IMG/VR virus record: IMGVR_UViG_3300008255_000214
Span: 1 to 42,480 of that record
Reading direction: 5' to 3' (one strand)
Source of the DNA: a virus
Taxonomy: Duplodnaviria; Caudoviricetes
DNA: 42,480 nt
The notes below the pieces were generated by a model that saw only the letters and a list, made by a program, of their open reading frames with translations, searched no databases and was not told the origin of the DNA. Positions 827 through 29,917 of the stretch are shown here, piece by piece. Within the stretch, counting starts at the first letter, position 1. Each line of letters starts with the position of its first letter. The position numbers were made by a program, and so were the translations under genes.

Positions 827-3043
827 TTATAGCGGTAAGCTTCCCATTGCCTTTGTTTCTGCTCCCTTCATAGCACCCATAGCTTGTTTTAAGGGGTTGC
901 TAATAGAACTTGGAGCTACAATCGTATTACTTGCTCCAGGAGTTGCTGGCATTCCAGGCATTCCGCCCTCTTCTAAGCTGTTCTGGTCTACAAATAAGCT
1001 GTTTTCTGGTTTTTCTTGTTCGGCTGCAGCAATTTCTTCTTTCTCTTTTTGTAATATTTCAGGATTGTTAACTGCTTGTAATAGGTCGTCAAATACCCAA
1101 TTCTCTGGATTTTCGTCATTAATATCTAAAATCTCGTTAAGCGGATGGTATAAAGCAATAGCAACTTCTTTTCCGCCCTCTGGAGTATACATCTCTCCAG
1201 TTTTTGGGTCTACGTGCTGATACCAAAGCGATGCCATCTGTTGAACTACTGGGCTAACTACATTATAAAGTTCTAGCTTCCTTTGTTTTTCTAATTCAGG
1301 GTTAGGACTTATAATTGACTTAGCCTTAATTGTAATTTTACCATCCCATTTAATATTTTCAAGCGGGAATTGCTCGCTTCCCATCTTAAAGAAGCGTCTT
1401 TCAGGGCTTTCAACTAAAGAACCATCTCTATCTTCATCTAAACCGAGGTCAATATCTTGGTAATACTCTCCTTCAATTTCTCCATTTGGTAAGTTTCTTA
1501 ATTTACTTGCTTTTTTATTGCTTTCTTCTTCAAATGCTAATAACTCTTTGCTGTTTGCGAACTTCTTTATCTCTGGAACTGAATACACTTGATTAGCCCA
1601 AGATAGCGTCAGGTAAGCGTCTTGCTCTATAGCCTTAGCAATGTTAAGTAAAGGTATATTTAAACGCTTTAGAGCGGAGTCTTTGGCGTGTAGCACCTCT
1701 CCTAAAGTCTTTCCGCCCACTTCTCCTTCAAGCGTTGGTGTTATTCCAGTGTTGTCATCCATTCTTGCTTTTAAGTGGTCAATCATTTCTGGAGCTCTAC
1801 GGTCATATTCTATTTTTACTTGGTCAATAGTTGTTCCAGGTTTCTTTTGAACCATTTTATCAGGGGAAATTGTTATTTGACTTTCTCCATCCATAAGAGG
1901 TCCAGTATAGAAAATCATTGGGTAAATTGCCATCGTTAACTGGTCAATACTCATATTGGAAAATCTATCGTAAAGCATCTTGTTGTTCTTTATCAGTTCA
2001 AATAATCCAATTCCGTATATTGTTCTTGGGTCACGCTCTAACCAATATGTATACCAAAGTGTTAATTTTCCGTCATCGTTTGGAAGTGGGGAGTAATAAA
2101 GAACAGTGTTTTTCTCTCCAGGAACGCTAATTACATAAAGGTCTTTCTTTTTGTTCTCATAAAAACCAACAGTGACCATATCTTCTCTACTCTTTGTTGC
2201 TGAGTTTAGTCCTTCAGTTCCTTGATTTAAAGTTCCACCCTTAATTGCTTTGGAGTTTTTGTATATTCCGAACTCTTCTTCAAAGTCTTCTAACGAATAA
2301 TCTTTTTCGTAATACCAATCGTTTACTGAAAAAGGGTCAGTTAAATTAGCTTTGTCATCAATCCAAGTGCGATATAAATCAAGCTTCTCTCTGTAAATAT
2401 CGTTGAATTCAATAATCTGTATTTTTTTATACTTATTGTTATCTGGGTTTTCGGTGTCAATCTCTTCTAAAATCTGCTTATCTCTTTTTAAAATACGAGG
2501 AACTGTATGACCGACAGCAAATCCATACTTCGCTAAGTCAAATACAAATAACTTTAAAACTTCTATGCTGTTATTAATTTCCCAGTTTCTTTTCCAAATA
2601 GCCTTTGCAATATTGTTTCTTTTTTCATACTTTTCGCAAGTGGCTTTCATTACAGCTTCAGGGTTCTGGTCTATTAAAATAGAAAGAGCCGTCTGTATCT
2701 TAACTAACAATGTCGGCTCTGAAAGTGTAGAACGCCATTTAGCTTTATCTGCTTCGGTGGTTATATCTACTATTTTTGCATTTGCATTTGTATTTCCTGC
2801 ATCTTCATCTGCTATTGTAACTAGAGTTGAAACTGCACTTGTCGCTAACAGGTCTTTAGGCTTATATTCTCTGTCAGCCTTTTTCATCATTTCCTCAAAG
2901 TTAAAGCCGTCAAGTATATCTAGTTTAGTCTTTTTTAATACAGGAATACGCTTGTCTAAGAATAATATAATCTTTTGCTCCTGTTCTGTAGGTTGATATG
3001 ACTTGACTTCTTTATTTTTGTTGAAGTTTATTAATTTTTTCAT
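827..3043 (-). CDS. Portal protein (podovirus/P22-like)
   Basis: 738 aa, immediately downstream of the large terminase; YGIGLFELIK and MDDNTGITPTLEG segments resemble portal wing/stem; low-complexity C-terminal tail. Confidence 0.8.
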   Translation of the reverse strand: MKKLINFNKNKEVKSYQPTEQEQKIILFLDKRIPVLKKTKLDILDGFNFEEMMKKADREYKPKDLLATSAVSTLVTIADEDAGNTNANAKIVDITTEADKAKWRSTLSEPTLLVKIQTALSILIDQNPEAVMKATCEKYEKRNNIAKAIWKRNWEINNSIEVLKLFVFDLAKYGFAVGHTVPRILKRDKQILEEIDTENPDNNKYKKIQIIEFNDIYREKLDLYRTWIDDKANLTDPFSVNDWYYEKDYSLEDFEEEFGIYKNSKAIKGGTLNQGTEGLNSATKSREDMVTVGFYENKKKDLYVISVPGEKNTVLYYSPLPNDDGKLTLWYTYWLERDPRTIYGIGLFELIKNNKMLYDRFSNMSIDQLTMAIYPMIFYTGPLMDGESQITISPDKMVQKKPGTTIDQVKIEYDRRAPEMIDHLKARMDDNTGITPTLEGEVGGKTLGEVLHAKDSALKRLNIPLLNIAKAIEQDAYLTLSWANQVYSVPEIKKFANSKELLAFEEESNKKASKLRNLPNGEIEGEYYQDIDLGLDEDRDGSLVESPERRFFKMGSEQFPLENIKWDGKITIKAKSIISPNPELEKQRKLELYNVVSPVVQQMASLWYQHVDPKTGEMYTPEGGKEVAIALYHPLNEILDINDENPENWVFDDLLQAVNNPEILQKEKEEIAAAEQEKPENSLFVDQNSLEEGGMPGMPATPGASNTIVAPSSISNPLKQAMGAMKGAETKAMGSLPL

Positions 3044-6087: not shown

Positions 6088-6174
6088 AATTTCATTTTTA
6101 TCCAAAATTGCTTCCGCTGATTGTTTCGGCTGAAGCATTTTTACAAAAAAACTATTCCAGAATTTCATCATAAG

Positions 6175-6246
6175 TTGCAGGGGTTGGATTTGAACCAACG
6201 ACCTCTTGCTTATGAAACAAGCGAGCTTCCACTGCTCTACCCTGCC
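6175..6246 (-). tRNA. tRNA-Met(CAU), initiator-like, CCA not encoded
   Basis: GGCAGGG TA GAGC AGTGGAA GCTC G CTTGT TTCATAA GCAAG AGGTC GTTGG TTCAAAT CCAAC CCCTGCA A forms a complete cloverleaf. Confidence 0.93.
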
Positions 6247-8524: not shown

Positions 8525-9514
8525 ATGGAAAAATTAGAACAAAATTCATTTCTGTTAGAATTAGCAGAAAACAATAAAGAAATTATCTACAAAGATAATA
8601 AAACTTTAGCAAAGTTAGATTGGTTAAAGCCTTGGAAAAAAAATCCAAGAGATGCTGGGAAAAAAGATTTAGAAAAACTTGAAGCCCAAATAGAAGAGTT
8701 GGGTGTATACAAACCTTTAATTGTTTATTTGGAAAATGACAATGCTACAATTTTAGGCGGAAATCAAAGATACAAAATACTAAAATCTTTGAGAGAAAAG
8801 TATGCGAAAAAAGGTTCAGATAAATACGAATATGTTTGGGTTAGCGTAGTTAACGCTGATAACGATATTGATAAAGTTAAGTATGCCCTTAGTGATAATT
8901 TTTCAGCTGGAACTTATAGCCGAGAAAAACTTAAAGAATTAATAAATGCTGAACAGGGCAATTTATTTTCTGATTATGAACTTGAATTTGGGGGCAAACA
9001 AGGCATAGATGAATTTATTGCTTCTATTGAAAAAACAGAAACGGAAATAAAAATGGAAGCAGTAACAAAACAACTAAAAGAAATAGGTATTGACGAGGAA
9101 ATTATTGAAGATATTAGAGCTATGTCAAACCTTGAAGAAACAGAGTTTAAGCAAGAAAAGATTTTAGGAACTGGTGCTATCCAATTTAAAGACAGAAAGA
9201 TTTTTGTTCTTAAGTTAGTTTTCGGCGATGAAAATGAAGAACTTTATAACGAACTTTCAAAAGAATTCAAAGTCGGAGCCGAAATCTTTAAAGAAGCTAA
9301 TGGAAACTTATATCAAAGGCTTATAAACTTCTATGGTAGGGGAACTGGGGATGTTTTGGTTAAAACTATGCACTTACTTGCGAACTTGCCAACTAAAAAA
9401 ATTGAAGAACTAAAATTAGAAGTTGAAAATAAAATTAAACAAGAAGAAGAAGATATAAAAATATACCAAGAAAAAAATGAAGACACATTTAGTGGCGGAA
9501 TGTTAATTAAATAA
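8525..9514 (+). CDS. ParB/sulfiredoxin-like N-terminal domain protein
   Basis: LKPWKKNPR...LEAQIEELGVYKPLIV...ILGGNQRYKIL and later LSDN; acidic C-terminal region unrecognised. Confidence 0.8.
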   Translation: MEKLEQNSFLLELAENNKEIIYKDNKTLAKLDWLKPWKKNPRDAGKKDLEKLEAQIEELGVYKPLIVYLENDNATILGGNQRYKILKSLREKYAKKGSDKYEYVWVSVVNADNDIDKVKYALSDNFSAGTYSREKLKELINAEQGNLFSDYELEFGGKQGIDEFIASIEKTETEIKMEAVTKQLKEIGIDEEIIEDIRAMSNLEETEFKQEKILGTGAIQFKDRKIFVLKLVFGDENEELYNELSKEFKVGAEIFKEANGNLYQRLINFYGRGTGDVLVKTMHLLANLPTKKIEELKLEVENKIKQEEEDIKIYQEKNEDTFSGGMLIK

Positions 9515-9518
9515 AACT

Positions 9519-10847
9519 ATGAAATATCAAAAATCATACAACAGTCCAAGATTAAATGGACAATTCCCATTTTGTTCGTTTCCTTTCGCTTTAGATACAT
9601 ACAGCGGTTGCACTCATCTTTGTAAATATTGTTTTAGTTATACCAATTACCTGATAAACTGCTCCACCAAGGGAAATGATAAGGACTTCTTTGCTATGGC
9701 TAAAACCATAAACATAAAAAATCTTGAAAGGGCGTTTGAAGAAGAAAGAACAAAAGACAGCAAGCAAATCAAAATATACCGCAAACTAATTAAACAAAGA
9801 GTTCCAATGCACTGGGGCGGTATTAGCGACCCTTTTAGTGAATACGAATTACTTAGCGATGAAAAAGTTAGCTTAGAATGCCTAAAACTATTCAATAAAC
9901 ACCAATACCCAATAATTATGTCAACCAAAAGCAAATGGTTGCATAAGCATCCTGAATACTTAAAAGAAATGCAAGAAAACAAAAACTTCATTTTTCAAGT
10001 TAGTTTAATCTCTTTTAACGAAAAAATGAAACAAATAGAGCCTGGAACTACTGTTGAAGACAGGTTAGAATTAATAAAAATAATGGCAAAAACAAATAGA
10101 GTTGTTGTTCGCTGTCAGCCTTTTATCCCAAACTTAGATACAGATGAAGAAATTGAACACTTCTTAAAAACATTGTCAGAATTAGGGGTTAGTGCTGTTA
10201 CAATAGAATTCTTAAAGATTTCAGCATTCCAAACTAAAGAAGTAAAACAAGTTATGAACGAATTATCAGAAGCACTAGGATATGATGTTTTAAGGTTTTA
10301 TAGGTTTAAAGGTCAAAAGGCTGGAACTGATTTTGAGTTAAGATTTAGTTATAAGGCTCCAATATTGCTTAAGTTTAGAGATTTATGCCATAAATATAAT
10401 ATGGAGTTTTATTCCGCTGAAAATTCAATGAGAGAATACGGAGATGGTCATTCTTGTTGCGGAGTTCCTAAGGAATATCCTGGATTTGAAAACAGAATGG
10501 AAGCTCAAAACTCTAATGCTATATTTAAAGCTAGAGAAAATGGAAGAGTTTATTACAAAGATGTTTTCGGAAATATGAAAGACAGCGACAAGGCGTTCTT
10601 AGAAGAAGAAATCGGACCTTGGTTAAATTTAGGAAGCACTGAAGGTCACTTGCGTTCTGAAGGAAAAACATTTTTAGATAAAGCATCGCAAATTTGGGAT
10701 AATCCTTCAAGCCCAAATAACCCTGCCCAATTCTTTAAAAATCTTGAAATTGACGGATTGGATGAAGACGGTCATATTATTTATAAGTATGTGAAGTCAG
10801 AAGGCTCTTGCAGTGGTTGTCCTTACGCCAAAGGTTGTATGGGTTAG
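9519..10847 (+). CDS. Radical SAM enzyme, spore-photoproduct-lyase-like clade
   Basis: DTYSGCTHLCKYC (CxxxCxxC), GGISDPFSEYE, STKS, later SCCG, and C-terminal CSGCPYAKGC. Confidence 0.88.
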   Translation: MKYQKSYNSPRLNGQFPFCSFPFALDTYSGCTHLCKYCFSYTNYLINCSTKGNDKDFFAMAKTINIKNLERAFEEERTKDSKQIKIYRKLIKQRVPMHWGGISDPFSEYELLSDEKVSLECLKLFNKHQYPIIMSTKSKWLHKHPEYLKEMQENKNFIFQVSLISFNEKMKQIEPGTTVEDRLELIKIMAKTNRVVVRCQPFIPNLDTDEEIEHFLKTLSELGVSAVTIEFLKISAFQTKEVKQVMNELSEALGYDVLRFYRFKGQKAGTDFELRFSYKAPILLKFRDLCHKYNMEFYSAENSMREYGDGHSCCGVPKEYPGFENRMEAQNSNAIFKARENGRVYYKDVFGNMKDSDKAFLEEEIGPWLNLGSTEGHLRSEGKTFLDKASQIWDNPSSPNNPAQFFKNLEIDGLDEDGHIIYKYVKSEGSCSGCPYAKGCMG

Positions 10848-10917
10848 CAAACTATGCTTTGCTTTGTGGTGGCTAAAACAACTAGGTAGAAAACAACGAT
10901 AAGGACTGAATACAAAT

Positions 10918-11721
10918 ATGAAATTAATACAAAACAACACGCCGATAGAAAAATACAAAATACAGGGTAGGGATATTTTTGTTAAAAGAGAAGATTTATC
11001 ATCTTTACCGCCCTGCCCTGCACTTGCTAAATTAAGGGGTGTTTATAAAAGGCTTGTAAAACTTAAAGAACAAGGAGTAAAGAAAGTCGGAGTTTTTGAT
11101 ACTAGGGTTTCAAAATCAGGACTTGGTTGTTCAGCGATAGCAAATGAATTGGGAGATTTAGAAATAACCAATTTCTATCCTCACTTAATTTCTTATACAG
11201 ATATACCAGAACAGCAAAAGAAAGTTATAGAGCTTGGTCATAAGATTTATGGAATGAAAGGTGGCAGAACAGCTGTTCTTTATTCTCAGGCAAAAAAGAT
11301 TTGCAAAGAAAATGGTTTAGAAATGATGCCACTCGGTTTAGTTGTTGAAGAAAGCGTTAATGGTGTTATTGAAGAATGTAATACAATTCCATTTACTCCA
11401 GATAACATAATTGTTTCTGTAGGTTCAGGAATGATGCTTGCAGGTATTTCTATTGCTATGTCTGGAAAGGTTAAAAGAATAATTGGAATATCTGCAGGTA
11501 TGTCGCCATCAAGACAAAGAAAAAGAATTAGCGATTTGCTCGGTATAGATTTACCCAGCAATGTTGAAATAATAAAATCAGAAAAAGGTTATTATGAGCC
11601 TGAAGAAATAGATTGCCCATTTCCTAGCAGTATATGGTATGACCGCAAAGCGTTTCGCTGGATGGTTGAGAACTTTAATAATTTAGATGGTAGTATTTTA
11701 TTTTGGAATATAGGTAATTAA
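10918..11721 (+). CDS. PLP-dependent enzyme, fold type II (ACC deaminase/D-cysteine desulfhydrase/cysteine synthase superfamily)
   Basis: FVKREDL...ALAKLRG (Schiff-base Lys region), SVGSGMMLAG phosphate loop, YDRKAF, ILFWNIG. Confidence 0.82.
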   Translation: MKLIQNNTPIEKYKIQGRDIFVKREDLSSLPPCPALAKLRGVYKRLVKLKEQGVKKVGVFDTRVSKSGLGCSAIANELGDLEITNFYPHLISYTDIPEQQKKVIELGHKIYGMKGGRTAVLYSQAKKICKENGLEMMPLGLVVEESVNGVIEECNTIPFTPDNIIVSVGSGMMLAGISIAMSGKVKRIIGISAGMSPSRQRKRISDLLGIDLPSNVEIIKSEKGYYEPEEIDCPFPSSIWYDRKAFRWMVENFNNLDGSILFWNIGN

Positions 11722-11731
11722 TATAAAATAT

Positions 11732-12085
11732 ATGGGAAAATGGTCAAAAAAAGCAAAAGAAAAAATGAAAATAAGACAAATGGGGAAAGGAAATCATAAC
11801 TACAAAAATGGCAGATGTTCTCTAGCTGAGGGGTATGTTGGTTTATTATTGCCAGAGCATCCAAACGCTCGTGGAAATTATTATCCAGAACATCGTTATA
11901 TTGTTGAAAAAAAGATTGGCAGATTATTAGAAAAAACTGAAGTAATCCATCATATAAACGAAATAATAGATGACAACAGAATAGAAAATCTTTATTTATT
12001 TAAAAACTCAAAAGAACATAGCAGATATCACGCTTTGGTTTATTGGAGAAAAATACCAAACATAGTTAAATCTAATTTGATATGA
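11732..12085 (+). CDS. HNH homing endonuclease-like protein
   Basis: [40 protein letters not shown]. Confidence 0.88.
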
Positions 12086-12576
12086 ATGAAATAAAATCAA
12101 TAAAAAGAAACGACCCAGCTTGCTCAGGAATAAAATGGATTTTGTATCCTGGACTTTATGCTGTATTAGTTCATAAGTATTTATCAAACAAGCTTCATAA
12201 AATTGGTTTCAAATTTCTAGCTAGGTTTTGTTCTCAGATTATGAGATTTTTAACAGGTGTAGAAATACATCCTGGAGCAAAAATTGGAGATGGATTATTT
12301 ATTGACCACGCTATGTGCGTTGTTGTTGGAGAAACAGCTATAATAGGAAATGATTGTATTTTATATCACAATACAACTCTCGGAGGAACTGGAAACGAAA
12401 AAGGAGATAGGCATCCAAAATTAGGAAACAATGTTATGGTTGGCTCTGGTGCAGTTGTTTTAGGAAATATAAAAATTGGAAACAATGTTAAGATTGGTGC
12501 TAATGCAATAGTTACAAAAGAAATACCTTCAAACAGCACTGTTATTCTTTGTAATAAAGTTTTAGAAAAAAAATAA
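12082..12576 (+). CDS. cysE: Serine O-acetyltransferase-like hexapeptide acyltransferase
   Basis: [43 protein letters not shown]. Confidence 0.88.
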
Positions 12577-13949: not shown

Positions 13950-14243
13950 ATGGAATTACAAATCAACGCTACAACTAAAATAGCCTATCAAGGCAAAAAC
14001 CAAGATGAGCTTTTAACAGCGAAAGAAGATAATCAATTCAAATCAAACGAATGGTTAACTTTCCTTCAAGCTAAACAAATCGGCTTAAGAGTTAAGAAAG
14101 GTGAAAAGTCAACAGCTTCAGTGTTTAGGGGTTTTGGAACTATTACAGAAAAAGATAAAAATGGAAAAACCGAAGAACGCTCAGCCCCACTTGGATTTGC
14201 TCACTTATTTAATTTAGACCAAACTGAAAAAATTAAAAAATAA
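13950..14243 (+). CDS. Stand-alone ArdC N-terminal-like ssDNA-binding domain
   Basis: NATTKIAYQGKN, WLTFLQAKQIGLRVKKGEKS, LFNLDQTE. Confidence 0.8.
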   Translation: MELQINATTKIAYQGKNQDELLTAKEDNQFKSNEWLTFLQAKQIGLRVKKGEKSTASVFRGFGTITEKDKNGKTEERSAPLGFAHLFNLDQTEKIKK

Positions 14244-20551: not shown

Positions 20552-21529
20552 ATGTTAAAAACAGCCGAGTGCGTAACACCAAAGCATCCTGATAAGGTTT
20601 GCGACCAAATTAGTGATGCAATTTTAGATGCTTGCTTAGAACAAGACAAAGATAGCCGAGTAGCTATTGAAACTATGGGCGGTCACAATTTAATAACAAT
20701 CACTGGAGAACTTACAACAAAGGCTTACGTCAATGTTCCTGAAATAGTTCGCAGCATTGTTGGAGATAGGTATGGCATACAAACGAATATTGTTAAACAA
20801 AGTCCAGAGATTTCAAGCGGAGTTGATACAGGTGGTGCAGGTGACCAAGGTATAATGGTTGGATACGCTTGCAGAGAAAATGAAGAAATGATACCGCAAG
20901 AACTATATTTAGCAAGAAGCTTGGCTAAATATATTTACGAAAAACATCAAGAAGATGGAAAAACCCAGATTACTTTAGATAAAGATATGGTAATAACTGA
21001 TGTTGTTGCAAGTTTTTGCAATGTTGATAATGAAACTTTAACAAAATTAATTTTAGAATGGTTATCTGGAAAAAAGTTTTTACATCAAGAAATGTCAATT
21101 TATGCTAATCCAGCAGGCGATTGGAGCCAAGGCGGGTTTGATGCAGATACAGGTTTAACTGGTCGCAAATTAGCTGTTGATAATTATGGACCTCAAATTC
21201 CAATCGGCGGAGGGGCATTTTCAGGGAAAGATGCAAGCAAGGTTGACAGAAGCGGTGCATATATGGCTCGTAAAATTGCCGTTGATTATCTTAAAAAGTT
21301 TTCCGAAGCTTCCGAAGTTATTGTTAAATTAGCTTACTCAATAGGTATTCCTGAACCTGTTATGGCAACAGCTTCTGTTAGAAAACTTGACAAATGGTTT
21401 GAAATGGAAATTAAAGAATATGACCTTACTCCAAAAGGTATAATTAAATCTTTAAAACTAAAAAACCCCATATATCAGAAAACTGCTGAATGGGGTCATT
21501 TTGGAAATGGGTTTATTTGGGATAACTAA
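20552..21529 (+). CDS. metK: S-adenosylmethionine synthetase
   Basis: HPDKVCDQISDAILD, GAGDQGIMVGYA, DGKTQ, DTGLTGRK, GGGAFSGKDASKVDRSGAYMAR, GHFG. Confidence 0.97.
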   Translation: MLKTAECVTPKHPDKVCDQISDAILDACLEQDKDSRVAIETMGGHNLITITGELTTKAYVNVPEIVRSIVGDRYGIQTNIVKQSPEISSGVDTGGAGDQGIMVGYACRENEEMIPQELYLARSLAKYIYEKHQEDGKTQITLDKDMVITDVVASFCNVDNETLTKLILEWLSGKKFLHQEMSIYANPAGDWSQGGFDADTGLTGRKLAVDNYGPQIPIGGGAFSGKDASKVDRSGAYMARKIAVDYLKKFSEASEVIVKLAYSIGIPEPVMATASVRKLDKWFEMEIKEYDLTPKGIIKSLKLKNPIYQKTAEWGHFGNGFIWDN

Positions 21530-22275
21530 TTGCTCCAAAACACGTGATTTCCTATTACAATATCTTTACTTTTATCTCTTTTATTAAAGCCTGACAATTC
21601 TTTTCCCCTTTCAGTTGTTATTGATGGGTTTAAGTAATTCATATTACCAATGATTAAGTCTTCCAACTCACCTTTATCGTATTTTTCAAGAAGCGATTTG
21701 ATAAATTCAGTCGCTTCTTTTATTGCAGGCGAAGCATCGCTTTTTCCCCTTAAGTAATCTAGTGTTTGTTTGTAATTTGGGTCATTAACGCTGAAAGCAT
21801 TATATTGAGCACCATTTCCGCTTGAAACAACTTCAAATAAATTTCCACCCCTGTAACCTTTTTCCGCCCTACTAACTATATTGTTTAAAATAGCTTGCAT
21901 TCCTAATTCCCCCTCGCCAATTCCTTCGCCAATAATAGTAGCTATTACTTTATTTCTTTGGTCATCGCTTATTTGATTTGTAATAGGTCTTGCAGGCTCT
22001 ACAATGGCTGCAGGCAACTCTTTGTTCAATACTGGTTGCATTGTAGGTTCTTGTGTTTTAAGAACATTAGAAGGCAATATTCTTGTTATAAGTGGAAGTT
22101 TTTTTTCTTTAACTATTTCTTTTTTAGGTTCTTCTTTTTTAATTAGATTAGTCCAAAGATTTTTTAATTTAGGCAAAATTGAATTATCCTTTTCTTCTTT
22201 TTTGGCACTAACAAAAAGTGGCTGGTCTTTATTTGACTGCTTAGGTAAAAATGGATTTGGTAAATTATAATTCAT
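21526..22275 (-). CDS. SleB/Hydrolase_2-like cell-wall hydrolase domain protein
   Basis: TIIGEGIGEGELGMQAILNNIVSR, QYNAF, IGNHVFW; disordered N-terminus; last gene of the virion arm. Confidence 0.75.
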   Translation of the reverse strand: MNYNLPNPFLPKQSNKDQPLFVSAKKEEKDNSILPKLKNLWTNLIKKEEPKKEIVKEKKLPLITRILPSNVLKTQEPTMQPVLNKELPAAIVEPARPITNQISDDQRNKVIATIIGEGIGEGELGMQAILNNIVSRAEKGYRGGNLFEVVSSGNGAQYNAFSVNDPNYKQTLDYLRGKSDASPAIKEATEFIKSLLEKYDKGELEDLIIGNMNYLNPSITTERGKELSGFNKRDKSKDIVIGNHVFWSN

Positions 22276-22337
22276 ACTATTCAAAAATCAAAGGAAAAAG
22301 AACAACGCAAATTCCAATTAAAATTCCGTCAAACATA

Positions 22338-23810
22338 TTATTTTTGATTAATTATAGGTTGAATTAATTTAGGTGAAGATTGTAATAATGGCAAGATGGT
22401 TTTTTCTCCAACTTTTCCAGCTTGGTATAAACCTTGAGCAACTCCAGTTAAACTAGCTGGCATTTGGAAAGCCCTATATGCAGCCATAGCTCCCAATGCT
22501 GGACCTGTTAAACCAGTAGCTATACCGCCACCACCTAAAATTGCATCTGTTAAACTAAGGACATTCTTATTCCCACGCCTTACAGCGTCATCAACAAGAG
22601 CATCAAATGCTTTAATAAATATTCTTTCTTCATTCATTAAATCACCTAACCCAGCATCTGATAATTTAGACCTTAACTGGTCTGCTGCAACTTTATATTC
22701 TTCTTGCTTTGGGGCTAATTTTGTATCAAGTTTAAAAGATGAAGTATTTCTCATTTTGTCTAAAAATCTTCTTATGTTCAACGCTAAGTCCATTGGTATT
22801 TCATTTTTATAAGATTTCAATTCAGATACTAATCCAGAAGCTTCTTTTGCCCTTTGGGAAAAAATACTCCCTTTAAAATACTTATTTATAGTTTCAATTA
22901 AATTAACATAAGCATTCTTATTGTCAATTTTTATTACTCTTGGCACGCCTGCTGGGGCTTCTTTAATAAAGTTTTGAACAGCTTTTTCTAAACCATCTAA
23001 TTTATTCAAAGAATATACAGCCATATTTTCAGCACTTCCGAACACTTTTCTTTCTAATAATTCTTGTGCTAATGTTGGATTAATTTCTTTACCATTTGCG
23101 ACTGTTCTAAAATAAGCTGCAATATCATCTTTGGCGACTTTAAACATTGAATTGTATAATTTTTCTGGTAATAATTTTGTAACAGCACTTCCAACTTTAG
23201 TTAATGTTCCAATTACAGGAACTGCTGCAGCACCAAGAATACCAGCTTGTTTTACTTCTTCTTTATCTTCGCCCATTAAAGCTGTTTTTATCGCTAAATC
23301 TGAACCGCTTGCTATCATCTTTGAAGAAAGCCCTAATAATTTAGCTAAAATACCTCCTGATGCTATTTTTGTTCCAATTTTAGTTGCAAGTTTTACACCT
23401 GCCTTTTCAAGCCCAGTTGGAGTTAAATATTGAACAGTCTGACCAAAAACCTCTCCAGCTTTTTCTGTTTTTGTTTCACCTTTTCTTATTAGTCCTTCTG
23501 GCAAAAGTTTTTCTGCTGAAGTTTTTTCATCAAACTTTGCTCCAAATAATTTTAATGGGGCTTGTAACATTTTTTCTCCAAGATTTGAAACTTCTCCTAA
23601 TGTTCTCCAAATAGAGCGACCTGCCTGTGAACCAAATTCTCCAACTTTATCTATAAAATCAGGCTCTTTTTGAGGAGTCATTGTTTGGCTTGCTTGACCT
23701 GTTATAGTCATTGGCTGTTTATATTTAGTTTCCAATTCCACTTGTATAGGGTCTATCGTATTTTGTGGAGTTCCGTATTTTTTTTGTAATTCTAATTCTA
23801 TTTTGTCCAT
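22338..23810 (-). CDS. Putative internal virion / DNA ejection protein
   Basis: 490 aa, Gly/Ala-rich amphipathic segments, located after tail genes. Confidence 0.5.
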   Translation of the reverse strand: MDKIELELQKKYGTPQNTIDPIQVELETKYKQPMTITGQASQTMTPQKEPDFIDKVGEFGSQAGRSIWRTLGEVSNLGEKMLQAPLKLFGAKFDEKTSAEKLLPEGLIRKGETKTEKAGEVFGQTVQYLTPTGLEKAGVKLATKIGTKIASGGILAKLLGLSSKMIASGSDLAIKTALMGEDKEEVKQAGILGAAAVPVIGTLTKVGSAVTKLLPEKLYNSMFKVAKDDIAAYFRTVANGKEINPTLAQELLERKVFGSAENMAVYSLNKLDGLEKAVQNFIKEAPAGVPRVIKIDNKNAYVNLIETINKYFKGSIFSQRAKEASGLVSELKSYKNEIPMDLALNIRRFLDKMRNTSSFKLDTKLAPKQEEYKVAADQLRSKLSDAGLGDLMNEERIFIKAFDALVDDAVRRGNKNVLSLTDAILGGGGIATGLTGPALGAMAAYRAFQMPASLTGVAQGLYQAGKVGEKTILPLLQSSPKLIQPIINQK

Positions 23811-23817
23811 ATTTTTA

Positions 23818-25563
23818 TTATATTAAACTTCTAAACCCTGTCATTTTTGATATAGGAATTGTATGAGTTTTTATTTTTTCATCTTTACCCCAGTTGGAGT
23901 CTTTAACTATTGCCTTATCTCCTTCAATCCCAATTATAACCCCAGTATGACCATAGGGTTCATATTCTCCTGTCAAAGGCATAACGAAAACCATTCCAGG
24001 TTCTGGCCATTTTATATTTGGGTCCATTTTTTGTAATTTAGACTCATAACTATCTCCAACGCCTAATCCAGTCAAATTATTAACAAATCTTCCGCATTGA
24101 CCTCCCTTTTCTCCGTCTGGAATAGAAGCTATTGAAGTGGCTAATTCCGTGTCGCCACCAACCGAATTAAAACTGTATTTATCTATTAAGGCTTGTATTT
24201 CTTCATCTGGAGCATTTGGATAAAGTTCTTTGTAATAATTAAAGCCTTTTATATCAGTTGTTGTTTCTGACTCTTCTAATAACCTTAAAACATCTGGCGT
24301 CACTATATTTTCAAGATTTAAGCCATAATTATCCGCTTGAGTTTTTAATCTTTTGGCGAAGTTAAGCTGTTCTGACTCATACCCATTTAATAATTTTTGA
24401 GACAAGTCATAGAAATTCTTTAATTCAGCTTGGGTTACACCTGCACCACCTCTTTCAAGTTTCTCTACTGTTCCTTGCATTCTTTGTAAAATTGATTGAC
24501 CGTCACCACTTCTTGCATATTCAGACTCACGAACAACAGAAGTTGGGTCTAGCAATTTCTGGAAAGTAACGAGAACAGCTTGAGATGGGGCATTGTTGCT
24601 TGTTCCGTCTAAACCAGCTTGGACTGCTGCATTATAGCCCTCTTCCATAATACCAATTTGTCTTTGTGCACTTCTAGTATCTTTAACTAAAGATTCAAAT
24701 TGTTTTGATAAATCTATTTCCGCCCTTATTTTTTCAACACCAGTTAAAACAGATTTAGGGCTTATACCCATCGCTGCAGCTTGACCCTTTGTGGTTCCAT
24801 ATGGAACATTTAACGCTGCAGCTTCAGTTGGCGATAATAATTTATTAGAGTCTTCATCTGTAACCCTTAATTTATCATAATCTAAAGATTGAAGTATAGC
24901 ATCTCTTGTTTTGTCGTTAACCTTTGCCAAATAAGTATTTATATTGCTTGGGTCGGCTTCAATTAACTTTTTATAGTTTTCAATTACACTTTCAGGTGCA
25001 ACCATTTTAGCTGCATAATCTTGGCTTATAGCCATTACTTTTTCATAAACACTTTCAAAATTAGCTGTTGCTTGTTGTGCTTTATTTAACTGATATGAAA
25101 CTTCATCAAATTCAGGTTGTAATGCTGTTATATTCCCAGAACGAATTGAAGCCTGTTGTTCTGGGCTGAATGTTCTTAAATCTTCAGGAGTAATTTCTGA
25201 TTGTTTCCCTATAGCAGTCATTTGTAAGGCTCTTTTTTTCTTTTCTAAATCCGCAGTATTTACTCCTTGAAACTTTAATAAAGCATCTCTTGTCAAAAGA
25301 TTAAAAATATCAGCTTCTTCTGTTGGTTCAGGAACTCCTGCAGGAACAAGTGAAGGAGTTGTTGGCAGATTTGTTTGAGTTTCTAAGCCAGTATTAGCAC
25401 CTGCAGTATTTGTTTTTGGAGTGTATCCATATTTATCTTGAGCATACTGAACATTTGCCAAATCAGTTGGGTTTCCTCTTGAATAAGCCATATCTAAATC
25501 TCCAACATTTTTATTGTCTTCAGTTAGATAAGTGCCATCTATTTGTCTTGTGAGTTTTGCCAT
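23818..25563 (-). CDS. Putative ejection protein with C-terminal CHAP amidase domain
   Basis: GGQCGRFVN...YGHTGVII...VKDSNW; helical body with LDPTSVVRESEY. Confidence 0.7.
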   Translation of the reverse strand: MAKLTRQIDGTYLTEDNKNVGDLDMAYSRGNPTDLANVQYAQDKYGYTPKTNTAGANTGLETQTNLPTTPSLVPAGVPEPTEEADIFNLLTRDALLKFQGVNTADLEKKKRALQMTAIGKQSEITPEDLRTFSPEQQASIRSGNITALQPEFDEVSYQLNKAQQATANFESVYEKVMAISQDYAAKMVAPESVIENYKKLIEADPSNINTYLAKVNDKTRDAILQSLDYDKLRVTDEDSNKLLSPTEAAALNVPYGTTKGQAAAMGISPKSVLTGVEKIRAEIDLSKQFESLVKDTRSAQRQIGIMEEGYNAAVQAGLDGTSNNAPSQAVLVTFQKLLDPTSVVRESEYARSGDGQSILQRMQGTVEKLERGGAGVTQAELKNFYDLSQKLLNGYESEQLNFAKRLKTQADNYGLNLENIVTPDVLRLLEESETTTDIKGFNYYKELYPNAPDEEIQALIDKYSFNSVGGDTELATSIASIPDGEKGGQCGRFVNNLTGLGVGDSYESKLQKMDPNIKWPEPGMVFVMPLTGEYEPYGHTGVIIGIEGDKAIVKDSNWGKDEKIKTHTIPISKMTGFRSLI

Positions 25564-25573
25564 ATATTTTTTA

Positions 25574-26719
25574 TTATAATTGACTAGTATTTAATATTCT
25601 TTGTTGGCGATAAGCTTCTTCAAGTTCGCTAGTTCTGCCTTTTATATTTGTTGTTCTTTCTTTTTGTAAACTTCCAACTAATCCACCTTGAGGAGTATAG
25701 AGATTTCTTAAGCCTGCTTCAGTAAAACCTTGTTTGCTAACATTGTAATTTTCTAAACTTGGCATAGAAACACCACTTAAAACATCGCTTCCTAATGTTC
25801 TTTCTGTCTGTTTGTAGGCATCTTCTGCTAATCTTGAAACTTTTAAAGCGTTTTCATCTATTAAGTCCTGTTGACCTTGTATATTTGTTTTTTCTCTAAC
25901 AGCTCTTTCGCTGCCATAAGTTAAACCTGCTTGAGCTTCTGACTCAGCTGCAGCTGCAAGATTTCTTTTAAATGGCTCTTCAGCACTTCTTACTCCTTTG
26001 CTAAAATCTTCTTTTAACCTTGAAATAGAGGTTTCTAAATCCTTTTTATAATTATTAATTTGTTCCTGATAATAGGGGTCTAATTCTGAAGTAGCTTGAT
26101 TTGTAAATTCTTGTATTTTTTCAGGTGTAATTTCAATATTTGGATTAATAACCTTACCAGCTTCAATCGTTTTGCCTAGTGATTGCATCATTTGCAAATA
26201 AGCCATTTGTAGAGTTGGAGACATTTTAGAAAATTGTGATTTTATATTTTCATCTTGAAATTGCTCTGTTAAAAATGGGTCGCTATTTATTATATTATCA
26301 TATGCTGAAAAATCTTGAGCTGGAGTTTCTTCTGTAATTTCTGGTTGAATAGGTTGAGTAATATTAGAAACATTGCCAGCAAAAGGACTTCTTGCTTGAC
26401 CTAAAATAATATTTGAAGCATCTTTTACTGTTCTCCCAGCAAATTTATCAAGTTCTGCTTGAGTGGCATTTCTGTTGTAAGCTTCTTTATACAAAGCATT
26501 AATATAATTAACATTAGCAACGGCATTTGGATTAGCAGTTGCTATATTTGTGTTTTGCAAATTAGATTTATTTGGGGTTTGATTATTTAATGTTTCGTTT
26601 GTTTTTTGTTCATTATAAGTTTGAGCCCAGCCCTGATTTAAAAGCATAGCTTTAATTGGGCTAGTTTCTTCTATATTCATTGTTTGACCGTCTGGTTTTT
26701 TCATCGTTATTAATGCCAT
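25574..26719 (-). CDS. Putative internal virion protein
   Basis: Q/N-rich coiled-coil; position in the ejection-protein block. Confidence 0.5.
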   Translation of the reverse strand: MALITMKKPDGQTMNIEETSPIKAMLLNQGWAQTYNEQKTNETLNNQTPNKSNLQNTNIATANPNAVANVNYINALYKEAYNRNATQAELDKFAGRTVKDASNIILGQARSPFAGNVSNITQPIQPEITEETPAQDFSAYDNIINSDPFLTEQFQDENIKSQFSKMSPTLQMAYLQMMQSLGKTIEAGKVINPNIEITPEKIQEFTNQATSELDPYYQEQINNYKKDLETSISRLKEDFSKGVRSAEEPFKRNLAAAAESEAQAGLTYGSERAVREKTNIQGQQDLIDENALKVSRLAEDAYKQTERTLGSDVLSGVSMPSLENYNVSKQGFTEAGLRNLYTPQGGLVGSLQKERTTNIKGRTSELEEAYRQQRILNTSQL

Positions 26720-26720
26720 A

Positions 26721-28517
26721 TTATTTATTTTTTAATTTTATTTTATCCTTATATTGTTGTTTCTTTTCAGCATCTTTTTCTTCTTCAACTTTAATTCTAT
26801 TTTCTTCAGCATATTTATCGTGCCTTATAGCTGTTATAATATATGAAAATTTGCCATCTTTTTCTCCAGCAAAAATAACTTTTCCATTAATCATTTCTTC
26901 TTTCACCCATAAATTATTTTGCTGACCAATACTTGTTAATTGGTAGCTATAATCATCTTTTATTTCTCCGTTTAAAGGACTAAACCAATCTGGCATATTT
27001 ATTTCACATTCTCCTTCTAATATTTGCCCATTTCCTCTATAAATATTTAACATATCTGGACTTTCTACAAAGGAATGGTTAAGCCAGTGAGTTTCTGGTT
27101 TTAATGGATGGTCAATAGTGAAAGAACCAGCAGACTTACTTAAAGTTCCACCAACATATAAACCAGTATTTATTTCTAAATTATTACTGGTATTCATTGT
27201 TATGTATTTTGTTGTATATCCTGATTTTGTTACTTGATAAGCATCAGAATAAACATTTGACCACATATAAGATGCTGTTCCGCAATTATAACTTCTTCCG
27301 CTACTTGGTTGAAAATGAGTATGAGTAGCTATTGCACTATTTTCATAATTTAAATAAGAAGTAGAAAAATTATAATTATTTGAATATATATTTGCCCAGT
27401 ATTGCGAAGATAGTCCACAGTTTCCTTGTCCGCTCGTCAAAGGTGCTATACCTGCCCCAGATGAAACATCAAAATAAGTAGTTCCGCTATCTGTTTTAAT
27501 TTTTATATTTCTATTGCTAACTGACTCAAGACCAAAATAACCATTTGTCGCACCTATTTTACCGTATGAAGTGCTACCATAATATACCAAAATATCCTGT
27601 CCGTGCATTGTTAAACCGCTAGAAGTCATTTTAATTCCAGTGTTAGCACTTGAACTTGTTTGAACTGTTCCGCTAGTAATAGTCCCACCAATAATTGTTA
27701 ACGCTGGTGAAGAACCTCCTTTTAATTGAAATCCAGTAGCTGAACCATCCCAACCATAACTTTGGATATAGCCTGTTGTTCCAGCACTTCCCATTGTTAA
27801 AGTATTTACTATTGTGCTACTTGAAATATATTGAGCGTCTAAAGAAGAGCCTGAACTTGTGGTTAAAGAGCCAGTTATTGTTGCTGAAGTGCAAGTAAGA
27901 TTTCCGCTTGTATCAATATAAAAGTTTTTAGCGTGTATTGAGGCATCTGAACCATTTGAATAAAGTGTCATATCACCAGCATTTGTTGTATATCCATTAT
28001 GGTCTTCAGTCCCAGTATAAATAGATGTTGAGTTAACAGACCAACCGCCAATAGTAGCTGAAGTAAATTTAGCTACGCCATTCGCTAATATACTTGCAGG
28101 TGCAGTCGCATAACCAGTAGCAACATTAGTTCCCCACCAAGCGTTGCCATTTGTATCTATGTGAAAAGAAGAAACTGTTGTTGCGTCAGGTATATTTAAA
28201 GAACCAACATTAACTGTTCCAGAAAAAGTTCCTGTGGCACCTGTAATATCTCCCCTAAAATAACCACTTTCAAATTCAACTGAACCATCGGCATTAATAG
28301 TCCATCCAGAAACACCAGCTTCATAATTAAAACTTCTTATAAATCCATCACTAACTAATAAATCTCCAATTAATTCCCCTGATGATAAATTAGTGCTTTG
28401 AACTTCAGAACTAGGCATTAAAGATAGACTGCTTGGATAAATAACGGCATTGTCATCATTTTTGACAACATCATCTTTATTTAATAAATTGTTTACACCT
28501 AATTCCTCAAATGTCAT
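26721..28517 (-). CDS. Tail fibre/spike-like protein
   Basis: G/S/T-rich beta repeats; C-terminal GSFTIDHPLKP..LNHSFVESP domain seen at fibre ends. Confidence 0.65.
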   Translation of the reverse strand: MTFEELGVNNLLNKDDVVKNDDNAVIYPSSLSLMPSSEVQSTNLSSGELIGDLLVSDGFIRSFNYEAGVSGWTINADGSVEFESGYFRGDITGATGTFSGTVNVGSLNIPDATTVSSFHIDTNGNAWWGTNVATGYATAPASILANGVAKFTSATIGGWSVNSTSIYTGTEDHNGYTTNAGDMTLYSNGSDASIHAKNFYIDTSGNLTCTSATITGSLTTSSGSSLDAQYISSSTIVNTLTMGSAGTTGYIQSYGWDGSATGFQLKGGSSPALTIIGGTITSGTVQTSSSANTGIKMTSSGLTMHGQDILVYYGSTSYGKIGATNGYFGLESVSNRNIKIKTDSGTTYFDVSSGAGIAPLTSGQGNCGLSSQYWANIYSNNYNFSTSYLNYENSAIATHTHFQPSSGRSYNCGTASYMWSNVYSDAYQVTKSGYTTKYITMNTSNNLEINTGLYVGGTLSKSAGSFTIDHPLKPETHWLNHSFVESPDMLNIYRGNGQILEGECEINMPDWFSPLNGEIKDDYSYQLTSIGQQNNLWVKEEMINGKVIFAGEKDGKFSYIITAIRHDKYAEENRIKVEEEKDAEKKQQYKDKIKLKNK

Positions 28518-29913: not shown

Positions 29914-29917
29914 ATTG

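What the first reader, a model, noticed from the sequence alone, without database searches (positions are those of the whole stretch)
8525..12576. Candidate new phage base-modification system: ParB-like + SPL-like radical SAM + PLP fold-II enzyme + serine acetyltransferase, with phage MetK
Seen: a tight operon right after the replication initiator encodes a ParB/Srx-domain protein, a CxxxCxxC radical SAM enzyme with SPL-clade motifs (SDPF..E, STK), a PLP enzyme and a CysE-like acetyltransferase; MetK is on the same arm. Known: phage ParB-like domains often accompany DNA-modifying enzymes, thymidine hypermodification in ViI/M6/PaMx11-type phages uses PLP enzymes, a radical SAM isomerase and an acetyltransferase, and spore photoproduct lyase does radical chemistry on thymine in DNA. 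Those pathways begin with a dUMP hydroxymethylase, a 5-hmU DNA kinase and an amino-acid:DNA transferase. I recognise none of these here, nor a phage DNA polymerase. Inference: a post-replicative route in which the radical SAM enzyme activates a base directly and a serine-derived unit is attached or trimmed by the PLP enzyme.
Basis: partly seen in the sequence, partly recalled or inferred. Interest (0 to 1): 0.88.

Follow-up and report, generated by a model that had tools for sequence, protein, structure and literature searches.

The report
Radical route to amino-modified phage DNA
This phage carries, in one operon, a ParB-like protein, an iron-sulfur radical enzyme shaped like spore photoproduct lyase, a full-length relative of a known DNA-adduct decarboxylase and a serine acetyltransferase, but no detectable enzyme that starts known thymine-decoration pathways, so it likely attaches an amino acid (most likely cysteine) directly to thymine in finished DNA and would then trim it to a positively charged amine, a predicted oxygen-free route that no experiment has yet tested.

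Summary
Observation confirmed, apart from an omitted HNH gene: ParB, SPL-fold radical SAM (rSAM), PLP enzyme, HNH, CysE; MetK lies 8 kb away. The PLP enzyme is a full-length relative of phage M6 gp52, a DNA-adduct decarboxylase (32%); the rSAM is not gp53 (17%). The 98%-complete genome shows no hmU synthase, kinase, amino-acid:DNA transferase, TET or polymerase. The rSAM family splits in two. One subfamily sits with 5hmU-using enzymes (59 of 70) in the slot TET holds elsewhere. This window's subfamily never does (0 of 120) but often has the decarboxylase (50 of 120). Best reading: the ParB-assisted rSAM oxidises thymine's methyl and couples an amino acid directly, probably cysteine (one relative carries CysK+CysE); decarboxylation gives 5-(2-aminoethylthio)methyl-uracil. 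DNA base modification about 0.85; the full cysteine route about 0.4. Main rival: a SAM-derived aminocarboxypropyl group (0.25). Against: CysE is rare in relatives, and the genome still avoids restriction palindromes. This scan noted ParB-rSAM-PLP cassettes on other DNA before. Ten paper searches found no description; one key 2013 paper could not be read.

The parts
8525..9514 (+). ParB-like protein (N-terminal ParB/Srx fold, NPR and GGNQR motifs); inferred activator of the rSAM, by analogy with ParB-dependent thymine dioxygenases
   Evidence: adjacent to the rSAM family in 44 of 45 genome loci; role by analogy with PMC13229309
9519..10847 (+). SPL-fold radical SAM enzyme, 442 aa, subfamily with Q15/H98/Q160/K233/N302; inferred thymine-methyl activating, amino-acid coupling enzyme
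   Evidence: fold; not gp53; subfamily
9609..9632 (+). C31-x3-C35-x2-C38 iron-sulfur/SAM motif
   Evidence: sequence; invariant in alignment A1
10455..10460 (+). C313-C314, invariant together with C19; candidate ligands of a second iron-sulfur cluster (inferred)
   Evidence: C313 and C314 in 191 of 191, C19 in 188 of 191 high- and mid-scoring family members
10918..11721 (+). PLP fold-II enzyme of the M6 gp52 family (K38 aligns with gp52 K36); predicted decarboxylase of an amino-acid-DNA adduct
   Evidence: 32% identity over 281 columns, E 9e-43; motifs; gp52 function from PMC8989533; fold
11732..12085 (+). HNH_3 homing-type endonuclease inserted in the operon; not a conserved part
   Evidence: PF13392 E 3.9e-10; absent at this place in L005, L006, L007
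12082..12576 (+). Serine O-acetyltransferase (CysE), short C-terminus; accessory, inferred cysteine supply
   Evidence: CysK+CysE after rSAM+PLP in L088
20552..21529 (+). MetK (SAM synthetase); accessory, inferred SAM supply
   Evidence: 4 of 49 related records; 15 of 70 sister-subfamily loci

Best explanation
The operon is likely a post-replicative thymine-modification system: the ParB-like protein would activate the radical SAM enzyme, which likely pulls a hydrogen from the C5-methyl of thymine in finished phage DNA and is predicted to join that carbon directly to an amino-acid side chain, most likely the thiol of cysteine, after which the gp52-family PLP enzyme would remove the carboxyl to leave a positively charged 5-(2-aminoethylthio)methyl-uracil. 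This is the sulfur analogue of ViI's 5-NeOmdU. CysE and MetK would top up the two consumed substrates, cysteine and SAM. Shown: gene content, homologies, folds, neighbourhoods and absence of the known entry enzymes. Inferred, in falling order of confidence: DNA base as target (about 0.85); direct amino-acid adduct made by the rSAM and then decarboxylated (about 0.65); thymine methyl as the site (about 0.6); cysteine as the amino acid (about 0.4 overall).
For: (1) The PLP enzyme is a full-length gp52 relative. gp52 decarboxylates amino-acid-thymine adducts in DNA and needs a free alpha-amine (PMC8989533 passages). The D-T-x-x-S-K-x-G loop and FWNIG end are gp52-like, not cysteine-synthase-like. 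(2) The rSAM's best fold match is SPL, an enzyme that acts on thymine in DNA (Foldseek E 4.6e-7; VIA Z 19.2, rmsd 2.9 over 258 residues, next family Z 16.7). (3) The family sits in the phage DNA-modification slot: TerL within 4 kb downstream in 71 of 80 viral loci. It is fused to the TET-associated glycosyltransferase in 8 of 26 long hits scanned, and once also to a P-loop kinase 3. (4) The sister subfamily stands where TET stands. L105 has Tet_JBP + kinase + transferase + gp52 + gp53. L097, L102, L103 and L120 have the same tail (kinase found in three of them by Pfam) with ParB + rSAM and no detected TET or thymidylate-synthase-type gene (fragments). Across 50 records TET was found in 0 and a TS-type gene in 1 (TET control 2 of 9). 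ParB activates phage thymine dioxygenases (PMC13229309 abstract). (5) Five positions split the family. H98/K233 type: 0 of 120 have kinase, transferase or TAGT nearby, 50 of 120 have the PLP gene. Q98/C233 type: 59 of 70 have them, and its 4 PLP cases all come with the full M6 tail. So the window's type likely makes a product that needs no hydroxyl-using enzyme and carries a free amino acid. (6) C19, C313 and C314 are near-invariant, and a fourth cysteine (C233) is found only in the sister type; this fits an auxiliary cluster with an open site for a thiolate (inference from recalled thioether-forming rSAM chemistry). (7) L088, a separate lineage, has rSAM-PLP-CysK-CysE in a row; CysE matches only 27 of 50,697 public phage records. 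(8) 30 of 45 genome hits are titled Clostridia- or Bacteroidales-type (anaerobic lifestyle recalled).
Against: No experiment; the substrate and product are inferred from neighbours. CysE is present in only 2 of 28 rSAM+PLP records, that is two lineages, and cysteine could serve only iron-sulfur cluster or methionine synthesis. gp52-family PLP genes also pair with methyltransferase-like genes with no rSAM (8 of 50 in the window's own PLP clade), and are nested inside one in phage ZS04, which favours a SAM-derived amino acid. The subfamily split is phylogenetically linked: the Q98/C233 type is one clade (support 0.995), so the counts are not independent events. I could not read model coordinates, so that C19/C233/C313/C314 lie close together is untested. 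The genome avoids 9 of 12 four-base palindromes (under 0.3 of expected), against 0-1 in 7 M6-like loci, so any modification is unlikely to be a dense anti-restriction shield; host and GC content confound this. The window's own lineage has the cassette after the replication initiator, not before the terminase. Sequence profiles alone do not reach SPL.
Confidence: 0.4

Rival explanations
1. The amino acid comes from SAM itself: the rSAM cleaves the other C-S bond (recalled precedents Dph2 and ArsL) and adds a 3-amino-3-carboxypropyl group to a base, which the PLP enzyme decarboxylates to an aminopropyl group. MetK supplies SAM, and CysE only feeds sulfur metabolism.
For: In the window's 50-member PLP clade the partner is an rSAM in 26, a methyltransferase-like gene alone in 8, and never a transferase or gp53. 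In a second PLP clade rSAM partners nest among MTase partners. Phage ZS04 gp7 is ParB + amino-MTase with a gp52-like domain inserted; a methyl group cannot be decarboxylated, so there the adduct is most simply the SAM-derived amino acid. The route needs no extra substrate, which fits the rarity of CysE.
Against: The enzyme has the canonical CxxxCxYC motif and SPL fold, for which 5'-deoxyadenosyl radical chemistry is the norm (recalled). The sister subfamily shares most invariant residues yet sits with 5hmU-using enzymes, which points to thymine-methyl activation. It does not explain CysK+CysE directly behind the PLP gene in L088. MetK is commoner with the sister type (15 of 70) than with the window's type (2 of 120).
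Confidence: 0.25
2. The rSAM only hydroxylates thymine to 5hmU, as inferred for the sister subfamily, and the PLP enzyme does beta-replacement, joining the alanyl unit of O-acetylserine (from CysE) to that hydroxyl to give O-seryl-thymine. This is closest to the first reader's idea. A variant has serine captured directly by the rSAM, giving ViI's 5-NeOmdU.
For: CysE is in the same operon. The PLP fold's nearest solved relatives are D-cysteine desulfhydrase and ACC deaminase, which are eliminating enzymes (their chemistry recalled). It keeps one chemistry for the whole rSAM family.
Against: Active-site motifs match the gp52 decarboxylase, not CysK. 26 of 28 rSAM+PLP records lack CysE. Where CysE recurs independently it comes with its own CysK. 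The window's rSAM type never sits with any known 5hmU-using enzyme (0 of 120).
Confidence: 0.18
3. Not a DNA-base decoration: the rSAM repairs photoproducts in packaged DNA as SPL does, or modifies a protein or small molecule, and the PLP, CysE and MetK genes are metabolic extras.
For: Top fold match is SPL. Strong restriction-site avoidance suggests the DNA is not broadly protected. 70 of 120 window-type rSAMs have no PLP gene nearby.
Against: Only 13-16% identity to SPL and no SPL family hit. The family is fused to TAGT and a DNA kinase and sits with transferases, Mom-like genes and terminase. The PLP enzyme's named full-length relatives in public phages are mostly the gp52 genes of M6/YuA-like phages.
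Confidence: 0.12

Closest known systems
Pseudomonas phage M6 5-NedU pathway (gp51 transferase, gp52 PLP decarboxylase, gp53 rSAM isomerase, gp54 kinase; PMC8989533)
   Same: Full-length gp52 relative (32%) next to an SPL-like radical SAM enzyme; inferred final decarboxylation to a primary amine on thymine
   Different: No hmU synthase, kinase, transferase or polymerase; the rSAM is a separate family (17%, separate clade), so it cannot simply be the isomerase of an adduct made by another enzyme
Salmonella phage ViI 5-NeOmdU pathway (O-seryl-thymine decarboxylated by gp226; PMC8989533, PMC5889632)
   Same: A heteroatom-linked amino acid with a free alpha-amine, then PLP decarboxylation; the predicted product is the sulfur analogue
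   Different: ViI starts from 5-hmdU with a kinase and transferase; gp226 itself was not compared here (no ViI record appeared among the rows listed)
ParB-dependent phage thymine dioxygenases (5mYOX + ParB; PMC13229309)
   Same: ParB partner without canonical partitioning context, terminase-proximal position, and the same downstream partners (GT, kinase, amino-acid transferase) for the sister rSAM subfamily
   Different: No 2-oxoglutarate/Fe(II) dioxygenase; an oxygen-sensitive radical SAM enzyme instead; the window's subfamily lacks all 5hmU-using partners
Spore photoproduct lyase (PDB 4FHC-4FHG, 4RH0, 4K9R)
   Same: Best structural match (Z 19.2, rmsd 2.9, 258 residues); thymine-in-DNA radical chemistry inferred
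   Different: 13-16% identity, a C-terminal extension of about 130 residues, extra invariant cysteines C19/C313/C314, and neighbours for modification rather than repair

Membership tests
Radical SAM superfamily | CxxxCxxC motif on a partial TIM barrel, Pfam score over cut-off | tested here: met
   C31/C35/C38; PF04055 39.5 bits against 29.5; model pLDDT 87.6 matches rSAM folds
Spore photoproduct lyase (SplB) | SPL fold | tested here: met
   Six SPL entries rank first in Foldseek and VIA
Spore photoproduct lyase (SplB) | Sequence-level membership of the SPL family | tested here: not met
   No SPL model among NCBIfam hits at E 0.01; best is PA0069 family 63.3 bits against 360; profile search of PDB sequences does not reach SPL; 13-16% identity
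Spore photoproduct lyase (SplB) | Repairs spore photoproduct | not testable with these tools
   needs an enzyme assay
M6 gp53 glycinyl-thymine isomerase family | Orthology to gp53 | tested here: not met
   17% identity over 236 columns; gp53 relatives form their own clade, support 1.00; different residues at E174, R182, R198, E230
M6 gp52 PLP decarboxylase family | Full-length homology, PLP lysine, substrate loop and C-terminal motif | tested here: met
   32%, E 9e-43, K38 aligns with K36; D-T-x-x-S-K-x-G and FWNIG shared, unlike CysK
M6 gp52 PLP decarboxylase family | Decarboxylates an amino-acid-nucleobase adduct in DNA | not testable with these tools
   needs an assay; the window's enzyme lies in a different subclade from gp52
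M6/ViI/PaMx11 thymidine hypermodification pathways | 5-hmdU source (dUMP hydroxymethylase or TET/JBP) | tested here: not met
   No Pfam or PHROG hit in 51 ORFs; TS profile best E 1.1 in six frames; genome 98% complete
M6/ViI/PaMx11 thymidine hypermodification pathways | 5-hmU DNA kinase and amino-acid:DNA transferase | tested here: not met
   Profiles give best E 3.2, 1.1 and 1.5; ADDT in 0 of 49 related records (control 4 of 5)
ParB-dependent T-dioxygenase systems | ParB-fold partner gene beside the modifying enzyme | tested here: met
   44 of 45 genome loci
ParB-dependent T-dioxygenase systems | Fe(II)/2-oxoglutarate dioxygenase | tested here: not met
   No Tet_JBP hit in the window's ORFs; 0 of 50 related records (control). 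The paper notes that many 5mYOX escape this Pfam model
ParB-dependent T-dioxygenase systems | ParB needed for activity on double-stranded DNA | not testable with these tools
   needs a dropout experiment
Serine O-acetyltransferase (CysE/EpsC) | Family score over curated cut-off | tested here: met
   NF041874 190.9 against 150; TIGR01172 199.7 against 210.65, just under; about 57-63% to named serine acetyltransferases

The most novel reading that the evidence does not exclude
A widespread family of ParB-partnered radical SAM enzymes in phages of anaerobes is a third, oxygen-free way into DNA hypermodification. One branch replaces TET/JBP and makes 5hmU; the branch in this window replaces hydroxymethylase, kinase and transferase in one step by forging a carbon-sulfur bond between thymine's methyl and cysteine. 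A decarboxylase then turns this into a cysteamine-thymine, a sulfur-containing DNA base not found in the papers searched.
Probability: 0.4. Interest if true: 0.9.

Novelty: new variant of a known kind. Interest (0 to 1): 0.74.

Why it matters
In the papers read here, complex thymine modifications start from 5hmU, made before replication by a hydroxymethylase or after it by an oxygen-dependent dioxygenase. Gut and other anaerobe phages that use host polymerases can do neither easily. This family (606 protein clusters at E 1e-30 or better) would fill that gap with radical C-H activation on intact DNA. Only SPL (repair) and gp53 (isomerisation) are cited as DNA-acting radical SAM enzymes in PMC8989533. 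The two-subfamily split gives a direct test: five residues predict whether the product is 5hmU or an amino-acid adduct. The enzyme could also be a tool for putting amines or thioethers on unmodified DNA.

Tried and rejected
rSAM against 50,697 annotated phage records: no match, so no cultured model phage was found by that search. Single-sequence locus search with the PLP protein found nothing; alignments worked. Orthology to M6 gp53 rejected. Hidden transferase, kinase or hmU module: none. Complex prediction for ParB with the rSAM: no answer, score 0.01 against a mark of 0.32, not used either way. Promoter and terminator scan: at chance level, 33 against 30.6 expected. The maximum-likelihood tree did not finish; FastTree was used, and deep nodes are weakly supported. 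L092's hexapeptide gene, first labelled CysE, is NeuD-like and was dropped from the CysE count. ParB as a SerK-type serine kinase feeding the PLP enzyme was considered and set aside: ParB tracks the rSAM whether or not a PLP gene is present (103 of 120 against 50 of 120). Host not determined: cluster names gave one Paceibacterota MAG fragment for a relative's PLP gene, and Woesearchaeota, Nanoarchaeota, Leptospira and Patescibacteria names among CysE relatives, which is not enough. Literature searches found no paper on this rSAM family. PMC13229309 has no 'radical SAM' in its main text or 12 supplementary files. Iyer et al. 2013 (PMC3763556) is not held and may already predict such neighbourhoods; supplements of the bioRxiv preprint and of PMC8989533 were not seen.


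Full report
WHAT IS THERE. The window is a whole virus record of 42,480 bases, 98% complete by the tool's estimate. It has terminase and portal on the left, a replication and recombination arm on the + strand, and probable structural genes on the right. MetK lies at 20552-21529. Pfam and PHROG scans of 51 ORFs, and a six-frame search with 14 profiles built from related loci, found no hmU synthase, DNA kinase, amino-acid:DNA transferase, methyltransferase domain, Mom or DNA polymerase; the best E-value of the six-frame search was 0.29.

THE PLP ENZYME. It matches 67 of 50,697 public phage records, 66 of them over at least 80% of its length, mostly M6/YuA-like phages. The M6 match is gp52: 32% identity over 281 columns, E 9e-43, with K38 on gp52 K36. 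Passages of PMC8989533 show that gp52 decarboxylates C-alpha-glycinyl-thymine in DNA, that ViI gp226 decarboxylates O-seryl-thymine, and that a free alpha-amine is required. The loop D-T-x-x-S-K-x-G and the end motif FWNIG are shared with gp52, not with a phage cysteine synthase in the same alignment. The model (pLDDT 96.4) is closest to D-cysteine desulfhydrase and ACC deaminase among solved structures; the paper reports the same entry (1j0a) for gp226. In a tree of 161 distinct family members the window's enzyme falls in a 50-member clade (support 0.99). Within 6 kb, 26 of these have an rSAM of this family, 8 have only a methyltransferase-like gene, 16 have neither (mostly short contigs; five have a nucleotide-kinase-like neighbour), and none has a transferase or gp53.

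THE RADICAL SAM ENZYME. It is not gp53: 17% identity and a separate clade. It has no match in the annotated phage collection but 606 protein clusters at E 1e-30 or better. The model (pLDDT 87.6) matches spore photoproduct lyase best (Foldseek E 4.6e-7; VIA Z 19.2, rmsd 2.9, 258 residues, 14% identity), while a sequence profile does not reach SPL. Besides the cluster motif, C313 and C314 are present in 191 of 191 and C19 in 188 of 191 high- and mid-scoring members. Of 26 long hits scanned, 8 are fused to the TET-associated glycosyltransferase, one of them also to a P-loop kinase 3, and one is fused to an FkbM methyltransferase.

NEIGHBOURHOODS. ParB lies beside the rSAM in 44 of 45 prokaryote-genome loci and a gp52-like gene in 9 of 45. 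By record title 24 of the 45 are Clostridia-type and 6 Bacteroidales-type (my grouping, anaerobic lifestyle recalled). A terminase gene follows within 4 kb in 71 of 80 viral loci; the misses include the window's closest relatives. Aligning all distinct rSAM ORFs (195 scoring 150 bits or more; weaker ones and gp53 relatives were dropped) shows two subfamilies defined by positions 15, 98, 160, 233 and 302. The window's type (Q-H-Q-K-N, 120 sequences) has a kinase, transferase or TAGT within 6.5 kb in 0 cases and a PLP gene in 50. The sister type (E-Q-K-C-A, 70 sequences) has such enzymes in 59 cases, and its 4 PLP cases all carry the M6 tail. Five sequences fit neither type. Four of the five positions lie on or just after barrel strands in the model, so they plausibly line the active site (inference). 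The sister type is a single clade (support 0.995), so these counts are not independent events.

THE TET SLOT. L105 encodes Tet_JBP, kinase, transferase, gp52 and gp53 in a row. L097, L102, L103 and L120 encode the same tail with ParB and a sister-type rSAM, and no TET or thymidylate-synthase-type gene was found in their (partial) records. In 50 related records, 22 of them at least 90% complete, TET was found in 0 and a TS-type gene in 1; the TET search rang in 2 of 9 other records. PMC13229309 (abstract, passages, section 12) shows that some phage thymine dioxygenases need a ParB activator, and that their common neighbours are glycosyltransferases, ParB, terminases, transferases and kinases. 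I infer that the sister type makes 5hmU without oxygen and that the family activates thymine's methyl. The lead to this paper came from earlier scan notes.

THE ACCESSORY GENES. CysE is in 2 of 28 rSAM+PLP records and 0 of 22 others (after dropping a NeuD-like hit). One is a close relative whose rSAM is 95% identical (L005); the other, L088, is a separate lineage with rSAM, PLP, CysK and CysE in a row. CysE is rare in phages, 27 of 50,697 records, several of which look like host fragments. Five further short CysE proteins of 162-164 aa at 65-95% identity exist, and three share their longest-contig length with close rSAM or PLP relatives, which is only indirect evidence of linkage. MetK is in 4 of 49 related records.

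HOW IT MOST LIKELY WORKS. The window's rSAM type lacks every known 5hmU-using partner yet often travels with an enzyme that needs a free alpha-amino acid on DNA. The simplest reading is that it makes the amino-acid adduct itself. I commit to this: a 5'-deoxyadenosyl radical takes a hydrogen from thymine's methyl; a second cluster held by C19/C313/C314 binds cysteine thiolate and takes the spare electron, forming a thioether; the gp52-like enzyme removes CO2, giving 5-(2-aminoethylthio)methyl-uracil; ParB activates the enzyme on double-stranded DNA; CysE and MetK refill cysteine and SAM. All of these steps are inferred. The cluster chemistry is recalled from thioether-forming radical SAM enzymes and was not tested. 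Odds: DNA base modification about 0.85, direct adduct plus decarboxylation about 0.65, the full cysteine route about 0.4.

RESULTS AGAINST. gp52-like genes pair with amino-methyltransferase-like genes in many loci without an rSAM. In Erythrobacter phage ZS04 a gp52-like domain is inserted inside a ParB-methyltransferase. There the adduct is most simply the aminocarboxypropyl group of SAM, and the rSAM might deliver the same group (0.25). CysE rests on two lineages. The genome avoids 9 of 12 four-base palindromes at under 0.3 of expectation (TCGA, GTAC, CATG and GATC at 0.02), nine close relatives 3 to 9 of 12, and seven M6-like loci only 0 to 1. A dense anti-restriction coat is therefore unlikely; a sparse or motif-bound mark, or a charge effect on packaging (recalled for putrescinyl-thymine; title seen in a reference list), fits better. 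GC content and host confound this comparison.

COMPARISON AND NOVELTY. It works like the M6/ViI pathways at the last step and like ParB-dependent dioxygenases at the first, but it fails membership of both (see membership tests). Ten searches of the held library found no description of this rSAM family. What I saw of each paper: PMC8989533 abstract, passages and section 21; PMC13229309 abstract, passages, section 12 and a term search of 12 supplements; passages only of PMC5889632, PMC13458397, PMC12704722, PMC10853773 and bioRxiv 2023.12.21.572611; nothing of Iyer et al. 2013 (not held), which may already predict such neighbourhoods. Earlier notes of this scan describe ParB-rSAM-PLP, rSAM-TAGT and MTase-PLP cassettes on other DNA; they are leads, not support. 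Verdict: a real feature, a new variant of phage DNA hypermodification with an undescribed entry step; interest 0.74.

Noticed in passing
L373:2326-4764 (Erythrobacter phage ZS04, PV416405.1, ZS04_7): Cultured phage with an 812-aa ParB + amino-methyltransferase-like protein that has a gp52-like PLP domain inserted in it, just before the terminase; a ready test case for aminopropyl transfer to DNA.
   Followed up: partly
L005:11351-11887; also L217, L227, L258: A cysteine-rich ORF of about 170 aa sits between the rSAM and PLP genes (or near PLP and MTase in L258) and is absent from the window; weak DUF3109 and CxxCxxCC leads only.
   Followed up: partly
L116-L163 (about 25 loci): A Pol A phage group has a swappable cassette between helicase and clamp: two further rSAM clades + PLP + two unknown genes, or PLP + methyltransferase-like genes, or PLP + one window-type rSAM.
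   Followed up: partly
window 1-42480: Extreme avoidance of four-base palindromes (TCGA, GTAC, CATG, GATC at 2% of expectation; GCGC, GGCC, CCGG under 10%), plus an ArdC-like anti-restriction ORF at 13950-14243.
   Followed up: partly
window 12082-12576: CysE ends about 15-40 residues earlier than four longer homologues in the alignment; the lost tail may remove cysteine feedback inhibition or CysK binding (recalled, untested).
   Followed up: no
window 6174-6246 (-): tRNA-Met (CAT) in the gap between the divergent arms.
   Followed up: no
L088 (IMG/VR contig, 40.5 kb, 29% complete): rSAM variant (Q-K-A-K-N) + PLP + CysK + CysE + a short thymidylate-synthase-like ORF, with a clamp-loader-like ATPase and an MTase upstream; possibly an archaeal virus.
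   Followed up: partly
L025-L027, L081: Window-type rSAM with two ParB genes next to a Mom-like gene (label from recall of the sequence pattern, not from a family hit); L081 also has PLP and MetK.
   Followed up: no
P0164, P0198, P0224, P0231, P0232, P0250, P0258, P0291; L103:4689-7282: Several family members carry inteins or homing endonucleases, as conserved phage nucleotide and DNA enzymes often do (recalled).
   Followed up: no
window 21526-31318 (-): Virion-region ORFs with weak cell-wall hydrolase, CHAP and DUF4214 matches, and a weak SU10-like portal match at 827-3043; host not determined.
   Followed up: no
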